From: an uncultured virus (IMG/VR IMGVR_UViG_3300007735_000782)
Lineage: Duplodnaviria > Heunggongvirae > Uroviricota > Caudoviricetes
DNA: 20,000 nucleotides
Reading direction: 5' to 3' (one strand)
Virus record (IMG/VR): IMGVR_UViG_3300007735_000782
Shown: positions 91 to 19,937 of the stretch, one piece after another
How the letters are laid out: the number at the start of each line of letters is the position of its first letter
Numbering within the stretch: position 1 is the stretch's first letter
Made by a program: the position numbers and the translations under genes
The notes under the pieces: model-generated
Told to the model about the DNA's origin: nothing
Database searches by the model: none
The model's input: the letters and a program-made list of their open reading frames with translations, nothing else

Positions 91-113
91 AAAAAAAGCG
101 GGCCTAAGCCCGC
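91..113 (-). terminator. Rho-independent terminator downstream of the rlpA-like gene
   Basis: Minus strand reads GCGGGC-TTAG-GCCCGC-TTTTTTT, about 25 nt after the stop of 137..499. Confidence 0.85.
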
Positions 114-136
114 CATTTCCTCACAACCCTCAGCCA

Positions 137-499
137 TTATGCCCTAGACCAGCACACCTTTGCAACCCCCTGCTCAGGGCTGGCAATTCTGCTGAATGCG
201 CCATAACTCAGATCTAGATCACGGCCTGCAATAAAAGGGCCTCGGTCGGTAACTGTTACGGCCACGGCCCTGCCATTATTTGGATTGCTAACTAGGAGCC
301 TGGTGCCAAATGGCAGGTAACGATGGGCAGTAGTCAAGCCATGAGCATTGAAGCGGCTACCATCAGCGGCCTGGCGGCCATGAAAACCATCACCGAGGCC
401 ATAGAAACTAGCGTGGGAGCATGCGGATGAGGCCCCCATTGCAGCAGGCGCAAAAGCACCAATGGCAATGGAAGCAGAAAGGAAAAATGATTTAAGCAC
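137..499 (-). CDS. rlpA: RlpA-like (DPBB) lytic transglycosylase with N-terminal signal peptide
   Basis: Motifs ASFYG..FHGRQAADGSRFN..TAHRYLPFGTRLLV..VTVTDRGPF...DLDLSYGAF are diagnostic of the RlpA/DPBB family. Hydrophobic N-terminus ends in AMGA. GTG start. Confidence 0.92.
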   Translation of the reverse strand: MLKSFFLSASIAIGAFAPAAMGASSACSHASFYGLGDGFHGRQAADGSRFNAHGLTTAHRYLPFGTRLLVSNPNNGRAVAVTVTDRGPFIAGRDLDLSYGAFSRIASPEQGVAKVCWSRA

Positions 500-553
500 T
501 GTTTTAGGAAGAAAGTTAGCAAGAACCCGCCAGGTCTCCCTGCGGTAACGCTC

Positions 554-603
554 AGTTTATCACAAATCAAAAGCTTGTGGTTTGACGGTCTTGGTGTTAT
601 GAT
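554..603. promoter_or_regulatory. Back-to-back divergent sigma70-type promoters (minus toward rlpA, plus toward the ncRNA candidate)
   Basis: Plus: TTGTGG (575-580), 17 nt, TATGAT (598-603) with TG extension at 595-596. Minus: TG-A-TAAACT (562-554). Confidence 0.6.
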
Positions 604-606
604 TCT

Positions 607-781
607 TTTGTTGGTCGGTCCTCCCCGCAAGGCTGGACGGTTTTGATAGGAAGGGCTATCCCGTAAGGGACGCCGGGCGCTCATGGTTAGCCTGCAAGGC
701 TTCCTATCCCTGTGTTCAGGAGCGAAGCTATCGGAGGCCAACAAACAATAAAAAAGGGGGCCTTTTGGCCCCTTTTCTTTT
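607..781 (+). ncRNA. Candidate structured non-coding RNA of unknown family
   Basis: Closing stem TTTGTTGGTC (607-616)/GGCCAACAAA (736-745), 9-bp stem 645-653/700-708, GNRA-capped hairpins CC-GCAA-GG (625-632) and TCCC-GTAA-GGGA (659-670), and CCTG-TGTT-CAGG (709-720). Promoter directly upstream and terminator directly downstream. Confidence 0.65.
750..781. terminator. Bidirectional Rho-independent terminator
   Basis: AAAAAAG-GGGGCC-TTTT-GGCCCC-TTTTCTTTT gives a U-tract on both strands. It lies between the converging minus-strand ORF 780..959 and the plus-strand RNA candidate. Confidence 0.85.
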
Positions 782-959
782 AGCTTTGTTCGTCTTCAAA
801 GCTGAAAAACTTATCAATCTCCAGCCATATACGATCTTCAATGGCCTCGAAGATTAGTTCGTCATGAGGTTTATCTACGTGCTTAAAGGCACGTTTATAA
901 CCGTCTCGAATGCCAGTGATGATAGCTTCTTCGAGCACTGGTCTAAATAGTGCCTTCAT
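780..959 (-). CDS. Small hypothetical phage protein, 59 aa (not in ORF track)
   Basis: MKALFRPVLEEAIITGIRDGYKRAFKHVDKPHDELIFEAIEDRIWLEIDKFFSFEDEQS. ATGA overlap with the stop of 956..1282. Resembles a small ORF type common in cyanophages (recognised by eye). Confidence 0.8.
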   Translation of the reverse strand: MKALFRPVLEEAIITGIRDGYKRAFKHVDKPHDELIFEAIEDRIWLEIDKFFSFEDEQS

Positions 960-2374: not shown

Positions 2375-3073
2375 TTAGACATCTACTGCCTGCAGGGCTA
2401 ATGGTGGTTCAATGGGAGTGTCATCATCTGCTACTACGAAATCAGCATCAATGGCAAGTGATTGCTGTTCTTTTTCTTTTACATCACCAATTGTTTTAGC
2501 TAGATCATCTAGGAAATTCTTATAGCTTTTCTTTTCTTCTGCTTGTGGTTTAATTTCATATAATCCCAACACTTTAGCTTGTTGTTCTAAACAACTTCTA
2601 GCAACAGTAAGGAATGAACTTTCACCTGCTCCTTCAGTAACAGTAACTGTTTCACCACGATCAGTAGATGTGGTAACAGTGCGTCGTTTACTTGCTTCAA
2701 ACTGAGAAAGGGCTTGTTCTTTTAATTGCATTGCTTCGTTTAATATACGAGCGCGATGACAATCTTGACTTTTAAGAATGCTTTCTGTCCATAAGCTTCT
2801 ATTTTGTTGCCGGTCTTGGTTAACAGTTTCTTTGCTTAATTTTAACACCCTTGATATTTGTGAATTACTAAGGTTTGATGCTAATAATTCTTGCACCATA
2901 AAACGCCTTAAACCAATGCTTTCTTTGGTATATGGAATCTTGCCAGGCCCATTGCCTACTTTATCGCGTATCTTATCCACTTGCTCTGGTGTTAAACCAG
3001 CTTCCACTAATACACGCAAGCCATAACGTAGCTCGGCTTGTTCATCAGGAAAGTTAACAATGGGGAGAGGCAT
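2375..3073 (-). CDS. HTH-containing protein, terminase small subunit-like
   Basis: HTH-like LSNSQISRVLKLSKETVNQDR, then a helical region and 'FLTVARSCLEQQAKVLGLY', a pattern seen in TerS-like phage proteins. No TerL is present in the window, so the function is tentative. Confidence 0.5.
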   Translation of the reverse strand: MPLPIVNFPDEQAELRYGLRVLVEAGLTPEQVDKIRDKVGNGPGKIPYTKESIGLRRFMVQELLASNLSNSQISRVLKLSKETVNQDRQQNRSLWTESILKSQDCHRARILNEAMQLKEQALSQFEASKRRTVTTSTDRGETVTVTEGAGESSFLTVARSCLEQQAKVLGLYEIKPQAEEKKSYKNFLDDLAKTIGDVKEKEQQSLAIDADFVVADDDTPIEPPLALQAVDV

Positions 3074-12287: not shown

Positions 12288-12767
12288 TTAAACAACACAC
12301 CATTGAGTTGAAGGAAAAGGAGTAATTACTATTCCTTGTTCATGCAATGGTAATGCACGTTGAGTGGCTTCACACCAAGCTTCCCAATCAGATAAATCAG
12401 TGTGAGCCGAAACATAACTATTGTTATATATCCAACTCATTAATACTTTCTCGCGAGAAAGTGACCAAAATCTTTGAGGACGCCACCATTCAAATAATGG
12501 TAAATTACCTTTGCTTGCATTGCAATCCAAACAAGACGGTGCATTATTCCATTTTGCAAAGTGTGGCCCTCCTTTGCTCTTAGGAATGATATGATCAATT
12601 GTTAATTTTTCAGTCCACTTGCCGCAATAAGCGCAAGCGCAATGGCCTAATGGTCCTTTCGTTGGGAAGTCTTCAAAAATACTTTTTCTATATCGACGCT
12701 TAGCATCACCGGGGCGTAATTCAGTAAGCGAATGGAGAAGTTCTTCAGGCCCATTGCTTATCCCCAT
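12288..12767 (-). CDS. HNH endonuclease
   Basis: CAYCG...TIDHIIPKSKGG...NNAPSCLDCNASKG. Confidence 0.92.
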   Translation of the reverse strand: MGISNGPEELLHSLTELRPGDAKRRYRKSIFEDFPTKGPLGHCACAYCGKWTEKLTIDHIIPKSKGGPHFAKWNNAPSCLDCNASKGNLPLFEWWRPQRFWSLSREKVLMSWIYNNSYVSAHTDLSDWEAWCEATQRALPLHEQGIVITPFPSTQWCVV

Positions 12768-19385: not shown

Positions 19386-19937
19386 TTAGGCAATAGCGAG
19401 GTTTGACTGGTCGGCGTAAGTCCAGCCATTCCAGGAATGACTGCAACGCCAGTGGACTGTTGGCTTGGGGACGCCCAGCTCCTTGGCTGCTGTTGTGCCA
19501 GAGTCAAACTCCCCCATTGGAGTGATGACACGCTTAGCGGCGTAGTGCCTGCCGCCGCCAATAGCAGCAGACATTTTTGCTTTTACTTCTGGGCGATGCA
19601 TTGGATTTAAGTCACCCTTGACCCAGTAGTTTGATTGCCCCTTGAGTGCAGAGGCTATCTTTTGCCGAGTCTCGGACGAAGTGGGCTTGCCCAAATTGCC
19701 TTCACTCACGTTCTGAGCGCCTGTCCCAATAAAGACATTGCCAATCTCGTAGTGGCCTTGATCACCCTTACGCATCATGCAGTATTTCAATGCGCCACGT
19801 CCGCGCTCTTCCCAGTGCCCTGAGTCAAGCCAGATCTGTTTCCACTCTTCAAAAGTCAAGCGCATTTCCAGCCCGCGCTGACGGACGTTGCTTTTTTGCT
19901 GCGTGTAAGCCTTGCGGAATGGGTCTTTAGTTGCCAT
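19386..19937 (-). mobile_element. Free-standing HNH-type homing endonuclease gene with NUMOD3/NUMOD1-like DNA-binding motifs
   Basis: 'LTFEEWKQIW..YCMMRKGDQGHYEIGNVFIGT.AQN' nuclease domain, 'SSETRQKIASALKG' and 'PEVKAKMSAA' NUMOD3-like repeats, and a C-terminal HTH 'FDSGTTAAKELGV'. Sits between a tail gene and its chaperone. Confidence 0.8.

What the first reader, a model, noticed from the sequence alone, without database searches (positions are those of the whole stretch)
575..781. Independently transcribed, GNRA-rich structured ncRNA candidate divergent from rlpA
Seen in sequence: a ~280-nt intergenic gap with no credible plus-strand CDS contains a promoter (TTGTGG-17-TATGAT with TG extension, implying a start near 610). 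It is followed by a ~135-nt multibranch fold whose ends pair (607-616/736-745, including a G-U pair that favours the + strand). Elements are GTCC..CC-GCAA-GG..GGAC, a 9-bp stem GATAGGAAG/CTTCCTATC enclosing TCCC-GTAA-GGGA and GCC-TGCAA-GGC (or GGCTA/TAGCC), CCTG-TGTT-CAGG and AGC-GAA-GCT, then a strong terminator (750-781). GNRA loops appear on the + strand only. I cannot match it to tRNA, SRP, 6S, tmRNA, hammerhead or the c-di-AMP riboswitch. Inference: a stand-alone phage small RNA or ribozyme of possibly undescribed class.
Basis: partly seen in the sequence, partly recalled or inferred. Interest (0 to 1): 0.75.

Follow-up and report, generated by a model that had tools for sequence, protein, structure and literature searches.

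The report
New cyanophage structured RNA beside rlpA
The gap next to a phage cell-wall gene (rlpA) holds a small, intricately folded non-coding RNA gene with its own promoter and terminator, conserved across a whole lineage of freshwater cyanobacterial viruses, abundant in lake RNA data, matching no catalogued RNA family and of unknown job.

Summary
Window 605-781 (+) is a stand-alone RNA gene. It has an extended -10 promoter (TGTTATGAT, 595-603), a 133-nt multi-junction core (610-742) and a bidirectional intrinsic terminator (753-781). Homologues were found in IMG/VR contigs, metagenome contigs and the cultured Synechococcus phage S-CBS4. On 72 distinct sequences, 96.9% of cells pair and 38 of 40 pairs show compensatory changes. 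G-U pairs outnumber A-C 237 to 6, which fixes the + strand. Metatranscriptome contigs of 168 and 172 nt cover just 605-772 and 617-788. Rfam 15 gives no match in the window or in six diverse members. The RNA always sits back-to-back with rlpA: 60 of 60 assessable loci, and 65 of 65 in a set chosen by an unrelated marker. Each near-complete phage genome carries one copy. It shows no pairing with rlpA mRNA above chance. Function is unknown. My best guess is a trans-acting folded RNA that binds a protein or ligand through an invariant junction (AUCGGA, CCGNRAGG). Fragments may already be listed anonymously in a 2023 bulk catalogue that I could not open.

The parts
97..114 (-). intrinsic terminator downstream of rlpA, forming the left edge of the two-gene cassette
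   Evidence: terminator scan
137..499 (-). rlpA-like gene: 120 aa with an N-terminal hydrophobic leader and a DPBB domain
   Evidence: ORF; Pfam DPBB_1 E=3.6e-21; PHROG 7930 'lipoprotein precursor'
527..545 (-). hairpin in the presumed rlpA 5' UTR (CCGCAGG-GAGA-CCTGGCGG on the minus strand)
   Evidence: read from the sequence; the region is conserved in alignment A2; the pairing is inferred
554..562 (-). putative extended -10 of rlpA (TGATAAACT on the minus strand), back-to-back with the RNA promoter
   Evidence: strict TGnTAnnnT in 40 of 62 homologues, and the other 22 carry TGGCACAAT or a close variant (one reads TGAGACAAT) at the same place; promoter function is inferred
575..580 (+). weak -35-like hexamer TTGTGG
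   Evidence: not conserved among homologues
595..603 (+). extended -10 promoter of the RNA (TGTTATGAT)
   Evidence: TGnTAnnnT at this position in 63 of 63 homologues
605..781 (+). the RNA transcript, about 170-180 nt including the terminator
   Evidence: whole metatranscriptome contigs: X1, 168 nt, covers 605-759 plus 13 nt of a terminator variant; X2, 172 nt, covers 617-788
610..742 (+). P1 closing helix, 610-616 with 736-742
   Evidence: 7 of 7 pairs have compensatory changes
618..638 (+). P2 (618-621 with 635-638) enclosing P2c, CC-GCAA-GG (625-632). Long-form relatives carry two further hairpins here.
   Evidence: all 4 P2 pairs covary and are 100% paired; the P2c CC/GG pairs are invariant and the CCGNRAGG octamer held in every row I read
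639..729 (+). P3, 639-643 with 725-729. It closes the P3/P4/P6 three-way junction.
   Evidence: 5 of 5 pairs compensatory, 99.2% paired
645..708 (+). P4, the 9-bp stem 645-653 with 700-708
   Evidence: 9 of 9 pairs compensatory, 99.7% paired
654..674 (+). P5 (654-656 with 672-674) and P5a (660-662 with 667-669, GTAA loop at 663-666)
675..699 (+). P7 (675-678 with 690-693), its 11-nt loop GCTCATGGTTA, and the junction strand GCAAGG (694-699)
   Evidence: 4 of 4 P7 pairs compensatory; coordinates
709..720 (+). P6 hairpin CCTG-TGTT-CAGG
   Evidence: the 3 basal pairs covary
730..735 (+). single-stranded junction strand AUCGGA between P3 and P1
   Evidence: unchanged in every one of the 72 distinct rows as I read the printed alignment
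753..781 (+). intrinsic terminator (hairpin plus T-run). It is bidirectional and also ends the converging minus-strand operon.
   Evidence: hairpin in 61 of 61 homologues and a strict T-run in 54 of 61
780..959 (-). last ORF (59 aa) of the converging leftward operon. It is context only and is variable among relatives.

Best explanation
Window 605-781 (+) is a stand-alone non-coding RNA gene of a cyanobacterial siphovirus related to Synechococcus phage S-CBS4. Shown: a conserved extended -10 promoter of the host sigma-70 type sits 6-7 nt before the first helix. The RNA folds into three stacked three-way junctions (P1/P2/P3, P3/P4/P6 and P4/P5/P7) with two GNRA tetraloops. An intrinsic terminator ends it. 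It accumulates as a discrete species of about 170-180 nt in lake metatranscriptomes. It is single-copy per phage genome. Throughout the lineage it sits back-to-back with rlpA, with the two -10 elements about 40 bp apart, and the pair is bracketed by terminators. Inferred: it acts in trans as a folded RNA. The invariant nucleotides cluster at the P1/P2/P3 junction (AUCGGA, the CCGNRAGG hairpin, G617). This pattern is typical of a binding pocket or docking surface for a protein or small ligand, and not of a base-pairing seed. Given that the gene is real, I put about 35% on protein binding or sequestration, 20% on ligand binding, 10% on catalysis and 15% on base-pairing regulation. The remainder is unknown. 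The confidence given applies to the shown part (a real, expressed, stand-alone structured RNA gene of a family absent from Rfam), not to the inferred mode of action.
For: Homologues were collected by four routes. (1) Nine RNA-bearing loci beside rlpA relatives. (2) A degenerate DNA pattern gave 40 of 45 sources searched (44 of the scan's 45 loci plus the window) confirmed by the covariance model in IMG/VR, 51 of 80 fetched metagenome loci and 1 of 17 hits in species-representative genomes. (3) The cultured phage S-CBS4 scores 53.6 bits, E=4e-14. (4) 67 of 80 loci chosen by an unrelated neighbouring protein carry it. Structure: 98.2% of cells paired on 62 distinct sequences, with 33 of 40 pairs compensatory. 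On 72 distinct sequences the figures are 96.9% and 38 of 40, with 0 of 500 shuffles as high and slid controls at 36-44%. Strand: 2187 Watson-Crick, 237 G-U and 6 A-C cells, so the minus strand would pair in only about 89%. Promoter in 63 of 63. Terminator hairpin in 61 of 61. Non-coding: the open minus-strand frame exists in only 43 of 62, and variable sites fall 11/11/14 and 4/8/7 over the three codon positions. Expression: whole contigs of 168 nt (605-759 plus terminator) and 172 nt (617-788); depth reaches 25,000 at 672-711, while bins 300-407, 516-542 and 840-947 are empty. Copy number: one match in each of 5 records of 67-74 kb. Linkage to rlpA: 60 of 63, the other 3 lacking upstream DNA; and 65 of 67, the other 2 at contig ends.
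Against: The window sequence folded alone is unremarkable on the + strand (z = -1.46) and better on the minus strand (z = -3.03). Contigs cannot show strand or true ends. One X3 contig (190 nt, depth 148) runs from upstream of the promoter to 711, and another runs through the terminator to 829. So some read-through transcription or DNA is present in those libraries. The alignments were fitted to a model that holds most of the tested pairs, though P2 was not in that model. No partner, ligand or target has been identified, so the mechanism is inference from anatomy only. No pseudoknot or tertiary contact could be resolved from covariation because of phylogenetic noise. Host genomes could not be searched with the model.
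Confidence: 0.78

Rival explanations
1. Base-pairing regulator of rlpA. This would resemble the divergently encoded type I antitoxin sRNAs (IstR-1/tisB, OhsC/shoB; recalled, not checked here): the RNA pairs with the rlpA 5' UTR to limit a potentially harmful secreted wall enzyme.
For: The divergent arrangement is invariant, with back-to-back promoters, in 60 of 60 and 65 of 65 assessable loci. rlpA is never seen without the RNA in this lineage. rlpA 5' UTRs carry a conserved CCTTGC that is complementary to the RNA's GCAAGG.
Against: The best complementary run between each RNA and its own rlpA 5' region scores 9.16. Non-cognate pairs score 9.20 and shuffled mRNA 9.02, and the best site falls at no conserved position. 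GYRAGG and the UTR motif do not co-vary. Whole-length duplex energies were no better than shuffles. A heavily folded 133-nt core with three junctions is atypical for a seed-type sRNA.
Confidence: 0.1
2. Ligand-sensing aptamer with the terminator as its expression platform. When the terminator is read through, + strand transcription runs antisense into the converging replication-gene operon.
For: The fold is aptamer-like, with invariant junction nucleotides, and is followed directly by a terminator. One metatranscriptome contig continues past the terminator to 829.
Against: No conserved alternative (antiterminator) pairing exists: a variable A-rich spacer separates the P1 3' strand from the terminator. 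The two whole contigs stop at the terminator. The terminator is also needed for the converging operon.
Confidence: 0.1
3. Ribozyme, either self-cleaving or of another kind.
For: It is compact and multi-junction, with strictly conserved unpaired nucleotides and GNRA loops. A weak twister-sister hit scored 14.2 bits.
Against: That hit is far below the gathering score of 34 (E=3.3) and did not recur in six other members. Full-length contigs from promoter to terminator exist. No hammerhead, twister, pistol, hatchet or HDV match was found.
Confidence: 0.07
4. Minus-strand cis-regulatory leader or riboswitch of rlpA, as the ydaO c-di-AMP riboswitch is for wall-remodelling genes (recalled).
For: The spacing to the rlpA start is fixed at about 102-108 nt. 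The minus strand folds better as a single sequence. Other phage contigs (L012, L013, L017) do carry a long sense-strand leader ahead of rlpA.
Against: 237 G-U cells against 6 A-C means the helices break on the minus strand. The GNRA loops would read UYNC. A minus-strand terminator (772-757) lies upstream of the element, and a conserved candidate rlpA promoter lies between the element and rlpA. There is no ydaO or other Rfam hit on either strand.
Confidence: 0.03
5. Not new: a known family that Rfam misses, or an entry in the 2023 bulk catalogue of IMG/VR candidate structured RNAs (Fremin and colleagues, PMC10690425).
For: That catalogue screened IMG/VR intergenic regions for covariation. It lists DNAVirus_8392 (106 nt, terminator called, 152 sequences, freshwater and marine, some with predicted Synechococcus hosts, paired with an opposite-strand twin 8393) and DNAVirus_786 (74 nt, 35 sequences). 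Both are recorded next to DPBB_1 genes.
Against: Its candidates are at most 151 nt and are unnamed and uncharacterised (passages read). The alignment files could not be read, so any overlap is unverified. The literature searches turned up no description of such an RNA.
Confidence: 0.3

Closest known systems
phi29 packaging RNA (pRNA, Rfam Phage_pRNA); details recalled
   Same: A phage-encoded RNA of about 120-174 nt made from its own promoter. Its 5' and 3' ends pair, it has a multi-helix junction, and it works as a folded RNA in trans.
   Different: No model match. The host and phage type differ: a 67-74 kb cyanosiphovirus rather than a phi29-like podovirus. There is no evidence for ring formation or a role in packaging.
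Orphan stand-alone structured RNAs of bacteria (raiA, OLE, ROOL, GOLLD, HEARO); recalled
   Same: An independent promoter-to-terminator unit with an elaborate covarying fold and invariant junction nucleotides, function unknown at discovery, and abundant in transcript data.
   Different: No sequence or structure match to any of these Rfam families. It is restricted to one phage lineage and always paired with rlpA.
Divergently encoded type I antitoxin sRNAs (IstR-1/tisB, OhsC/shoB, OrzO/zorO); recalled
   Same: A small RNA gene back-to-back with a short gene for an exported protein, kept together as a cassette.
   Different: No complementarity to rlpA mRNA above chance. The RNA is much more structured, and RlpA is not a known toxin.
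ydaO c-di-AMP riboswitch; association with wall-remodelling genes recalled
   Same: A structured RNA next to an rlpA-type cell-wall gene.
   Different: It lies on the opposite strand to rlpA, is a separate transcript, and has no model match.
Anonymous candidates DNAVirus_8392/8393 and DNAVirus_786 (PMC10690425, supplementary tables)
   Same: They come from aquatic Caudoviricetes contigs and are recorded beside DPBB_1 genes. One has a terminator and an opposite-strand twin, as a bidirectional terminator would give.
   Different: They are shorter (74 and 106 nt) than this RNA. No sequence could be compared, and no function or architecture is described for them.

Membership tests
Any Rfam 15 family | covariance-model score at or above the curated gathering score | tested here: not met
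   0 hits in the whole window. In E-value mode on 480-860 only terminator-like or sub-threshold hits appeared. Six diverse homologous loci gave only ctRNA_p42d hits on terminators.
tRNA / tmRNA | cloverleaf or tRNA-like domain detectable by ARAGORN | tested here: not met
   0 genes in the window
ydaO c-di-AMP riboswitch | model match, and location in the 5' leader on the same strand as the regulated gene | tested here: not met
   no match; the RNA strand is opposite to rlpA (G-U 237 against A-C 6)
Twister-sister and other small self-cleaving ribozymes | model match with the conserved catalytic core | tested here: not met
   twister-sister scored 14.2 bits against a gathering score of 34, E=3.3, and was absent in 6 relatives; cleavage itself is not testable with these tools
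phi29-type pRNA | Phage_pRNA model match, and a phi29-like genome with a terminal-protein packaging system | tested here: not met
   no match; the genome context is an S-CBS4-like siphovirus
Bacterial-type independent transcription unit | promoter consensus conserved at a fixed distance upstream | tested here: met
   TGnTAnnnT within 25 nt of the model start in 63 of 63
Bacterial-type independent transcription unit | intrinsic terminator directly downstream | tested here: met
   hairpin in 61 of 61 and strict T-run in 54 of 61
Bacterial-type independent transcription unit | discrete transcript of the predicted size | tested here: met
   whole RNA-library contigs of 168 and 172 nt span 605-772 and 617-788; strand and exact ends are not shown by contigs
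Structured RNA (general criterion) | compensatory base changes that preserve the helices across homologues, beyond controls | tested here: met
   38 of 40 pairs compensatory, 96.9% paired, 0 of 500 shuffles as high, slid controls 36-44%
Type I toxin-antitoxin (divergent class) | antitoxin RNA complementary to the toxin mRNA | tested here: not met
   cognate 9.16, non-cognate 9.20, shuffled 9.02
Protein-coding gene | conserved open frame with an excess of third-position variation | tested here: not met
   the frame is open in 43 of 62 only; variable sites fall 11/11/14 and 4/8/7 over the codon positions; one member has a stop

The most novel reading that the evidence does not exclude
This is a new class of functional RNA, either an aptamer-like sponge or sensor or a ribozyme, that is a core gene of a globally distributed lineage of picocyanobacterial siphoviruses and is mechanistically tied to the secreted wall enzyme RlpA. 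One example would be binding or sequestering, in trans, a host signal or protein that reports on cell-wall state. That would be a trans-acting counterpart of the riboswitches that control rlpA-type genes in bacteria.
Probability: 0.15. Interest if true: 0.9.

Novelty: categorically new. Interest (0 to 1): 0.74.

Why it matters
Structurally complex RNAs with strong covariation and strictly invariant junction nucleotides have so far nearly always proved to be riboswitches, ribozymes or ribonucleoprotein cores. This one is a core, single-copy and very abundant gene of a virus lineage that infects freshwater and estuarine picocyanobacteria, which are major primary producers. A cultured member (S-CBS4 on Synechococcus CB0101) carries it, so its function can be tested directly. 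Its unbroken pairing with rlpA also gives a handle on why so many cyanophages carry that gene. The practical point is that current annotation leaves a 416-nt blank at this place in S-CBS4.

Tried and rejected
- Near-identity searches were uninformative. A blastn of the gap against cultured phages found only terminator look-alikes. An exact 26-mer found only the sister contig.
- A first, strict DNA pattern added only one new locus.
- The RNAalifold/R1 pairing of GGAC with the 3' AUCGG strand was rejected. G-to-A changes at that position break it but are compensated in P2.
- The 22-aa + strand ORF at 684-752 is not conserved: it has a stop in L009.
- The 136-aa minus-strand ORF at 334-744 is rejected as a gene.
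- Whole-length RNA-mRNA duplex folding was uninformative because energies matched shuffles. The ungapped complementarity test was negative.
- The idea of an 'immunity RNA' with repeated targets failed a simple test. The complement of AUCGGAG/A occurs twice in the window, one of them the RNA gene itself, against 2.7 expected.
- The idea of a prophage-expressed moron is weakened: a tyrosine integrase is present in only 1 of 5 near-complete genomes.
- A column-pair scan for pseudoknots gave only phylogenetic noise.
- The model found nothing beside the rlpA genes of the T4-like cyanophages S-CREM1 and S-PM2, nor beside the more distant rlpA relatives L012-L033.
- The window's own assembly is not held, and no cyanobacterial genome handle could be obtained, so hosts were not searched with the model.
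- Earlier-findings look-ups returned nothing relevant.
- Empty depth bins are not counted as proof of absence.

Full report
**What is in the window**

Positions 500-779 are a gene-free gap. On one side lies a 120-aa rlpA-like gene (137-499, minus; Pfam DPBB_1 E=3.6e-21). On the other lies the last small ORF of a long leftward operon (780-959, minus). That operon carries phage replication genes: primase/helicase, Sak annealing protein, exonuclease, ThyX and dCTP deaminase. Endolysin and virion genes lie further on. The closest cultured relative is Synechococcus phage S-CBS4, whose primase/helicase is 54% identical over 98% of its length. Rfam 15 reports nothing at gathering level in the 20 kb. 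In permissive mode it gives only terminator look-alikes and a 14-bit twister-sister hit. ARAGORN finds no tRNA or tmRNA. Folded alone, the + strand is not special (z = -1.46) and the minus strand scores better (z = -3.03). The single sequence therefore proves nothing.

**Homologues**

- rlpA relatives in IMG/VR yielded nine loci with a similar gap.
- A covariance model (R1) and a degenerate pattern taken from conserved columns found 45 loci in IMG/VR. Of the 45 sources searched (44 of those loci plus the window), 40 are true by the model. The five misses are chance matches inside coding sequence.
- The same pattern found 119 stretches in metagenome contigs. Of the 80 fetched, 51 are true.
- It found 17 stretches in 185,579 species-representative genomes. 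Only one is true, a 9.3-kb contig of a pond MAG.
- S-CBS4 itself carries the RNA in the unannotated 416-nt gap between gp092 and its rlpA gene (53.6 bits, E=4e-14).
- An independent route used an alignment of the neighbouring 151-aa protein and gave 80 loci, of which 67 hold the RNA.
- Each of five records of 67-74 kb (four viral contigs that CheckV puts at 94-100% complete, and the complete S-CBS4 genome) has exactly one copy.

**Structure**

The hand-curated model, in window coordinates, is:

- P1: 610-616 with 736-742.
- P2: 618-621 with 635-638, enclosing P2c (CC-GCAA-GG). Most relatives carry two extra hairpins here; the window is a 138-nt short form.
- P3: 639-643 with 725-729.
- P4: 645-653 with 700-708.
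- P5 and P5a, with a GTAA loop.
- P7: 675-678 with 690-693, with an 11-nt loop (GCUCAUGGUUA).
- A junction strand GCAAGG (694-699).
- P6: 709-720.
- A single-stranded AUCGGA (730-735).

On 62 distinct sequences, 98.2% of cells pair, against 75.8% in shuffles, and 33 of 40 pairs show double changes. On a more diverse set of 72 distinct sequences, 96.9% pair and 38 of 40 pairs are compensatory. None of 500 shuffles is as high, and sliding the partners gives 36-44%. P2 was not part of the model that made the alignments, yet it is 100% paired with all four pairs covarying. In every one of the 72 rows I read, AUCGGA and CCGNRAGG were unchanged. AGC-GAA-GCT is not conserved, and its 3' half belongs to P3. 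GCC-TGCAA-GGC is displaced by P7.

**Strand and coding potential**

In the paired columns there are 2187 Watson-Crick, 237 G-U and only 6 A-C cells. On the minus strand those 237 cells would be mismatches, leaving about 89% paired, so the RNA is on the + strand. A minus-strand frame happens to be open across the element in 43 of 62 members. However, variable sites fall evenly over codon positions (11/11/14 and 4/8/7), and one member has a stop. The element is not coding.

**Transcription signals**

All 63 assessable members have TGnTAnnnT ending 6-7 nt before P1. All 61 with downstream DNA have a strong hairpin, and 54 of these have a strict T-run. On the other strand, about 40 bp away, a second extended -10-like element faces rlpA. 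It is strict in 40 of 62, and TGGCACAAT or a close variant in the other 22. This element is followed by a conserved hairpin in the presumed rlpA leader. Together with the terminator after rlpA (97-114), the two genes form an insulated divergent cassette.

**Expression**

- Public RNA libraries from lakes hold parts of the stretch.
- When laid on the window, a whole 168-nt contig (X1) covers 605-759 plus 13 nt of a terminator variant.
- A whole 172-nt contig (X2, whose RNA status is a guess) covers 617-788.
- In study P3 the depth reaches 1,755 (X3) and 25,000 (X4) over the conserved core, while bins 300-407, 516-542 and 840-947 are empty.
- These boundaries match the promoter and terminator.
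- Caveats: contigs show neither strand nor true ends. One X3 contig extends upstream of the promoter and one runs past the terminator, so some read-through or DNA is present.

**Linkage to rlpA**

In the pattern-derived set, rlpA lies divergently just upstream in 60 of 63; the other three lack upstream DNA. Where the N-terminus aligns, the start codon is 102-108 nt from the RNA. In the set chosen by the unrelated marker, 65 of 67 RNAs have rlpA beside them and the other two sit at contig ends. The 13 loci with neither have at most 3.1 kb of downstream DNA, and there is no case of rlpA without the RNA. The genes between the marker and the RNA vary, with distances of 978-4,000 nt, so the pair is kept together while its surroundings change. 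More distant phage rlpA genes lack the RNA: S-PM2, S-CREM1 and loci L012-L033.

**How it may work**

Several ideas were tested and not supported:

- Pairing with rlpA mRNA: cognate 9.16, non-cognate 9.20, shuffled 9.02.
- Repeated target sites for AUCGGAG in the window: 2 found against 2.7 expected.
- A conserved antiterminator.
- A prophage lifestyle: integrase in 1 of 5 genomes.

What remains is the anatomy. There are three stacked three-way junctions and two GNRA loops, and the invariant unpaired nucleotides are concentrated at the P1/P2/P3 junction. This is the signature of an RNA that works through its tertiary fold. I therefore favour a trans-acting RNA that binds a protein or small ligand, made early by host RNA polymerase. 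Catalysis and seed-type regulation are less likely alternatives. This step is inference only.

**Comparison with what is known**

The RNA is not a member of any Rfam 15 family. In lifestyle it resembles phi29 pRNA and the orphan stand-alone RNAs such as raiA; these comparisons are recalled, not tested beyond the Rfam scan. Literature searches found no description.

The one relevant source is a bulk catalogue of 8,495 IMG/VR candidates of 29-151 nt (PMC10690425). I read passages of the text and rows of its supplementary tables. Two anonymous entries, DNAVirus_8392 and DNAVirus_786, are recorded next to DPBB_1 genes in aquatic phage contigs and may overlap parts of this locus. The alignment files could not be read, so this remains open.

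**Verdict**

This is a real, expressed, strongly covarying RNA gene of a new family. It is a core gene of S-CBS4-like cyanosiphoviruses and its function is unknown.

Noticed in passing
L012:2255-2430, L013:2245-2440, L017:2250-2440 (IMG/VR contigs with a more distant rlpA): In these contigs rlpA is preceded on its own strand by an extended -10 promoter and a conserved leader of about 170-190 nt with several hairpins. It has no Rfam match. It may be a separate cis-regulatory RNA for rlpA, and possibly the catalogue entry DNAVirus_786.
   Followed up: partly
window 527-562 (minus strand) and the same place in homologues: The presumed rlpA leader has a conserved 5' hairpin with a GGAGAC/GGCGAC loop and a CCTTGC motif about 25-30 nt before the start codon. 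The CCTTGC motif recurs before rlpA in the unrelated L012-type contigs.
   Followed up: partly
window 2375-3073 (minus): A 232-aa protein falls in PHROG 645, labelled 'Rnase E' (E=5.5e-10). It shows only a weak GerE-type helix-turn-helix in Pfam. The label, which S-CBS4 gp086 also carries, looks doubtful.
   Followed up: no
L086 (contig JAIYDG010000211.1, 9.3 kb, in a pond 'Bacteroidetes' MAG): This was the only hit in 185,579 species genomes, and it has the RNA-rlpA cassette. It is probably a phage contig binned into the MAG, not evidence for a Bacteroidota host.
   Followed up: partly
window 12288-12767 (minus) and 19386-19937 (minus): HNH and homing-endonuclease-like genes are inserted among the nucleotide-metabolism and tail-fibre genes.
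   Followed up: no
window 619/620, run X4: One RNA-library contig carries sequencing-adapter letters directly before position 620 on the + strand. That implies many cDNA fragments end there, which could mark a processing site or a strong reverse-transcription stop inside P2.
   Followed up: no
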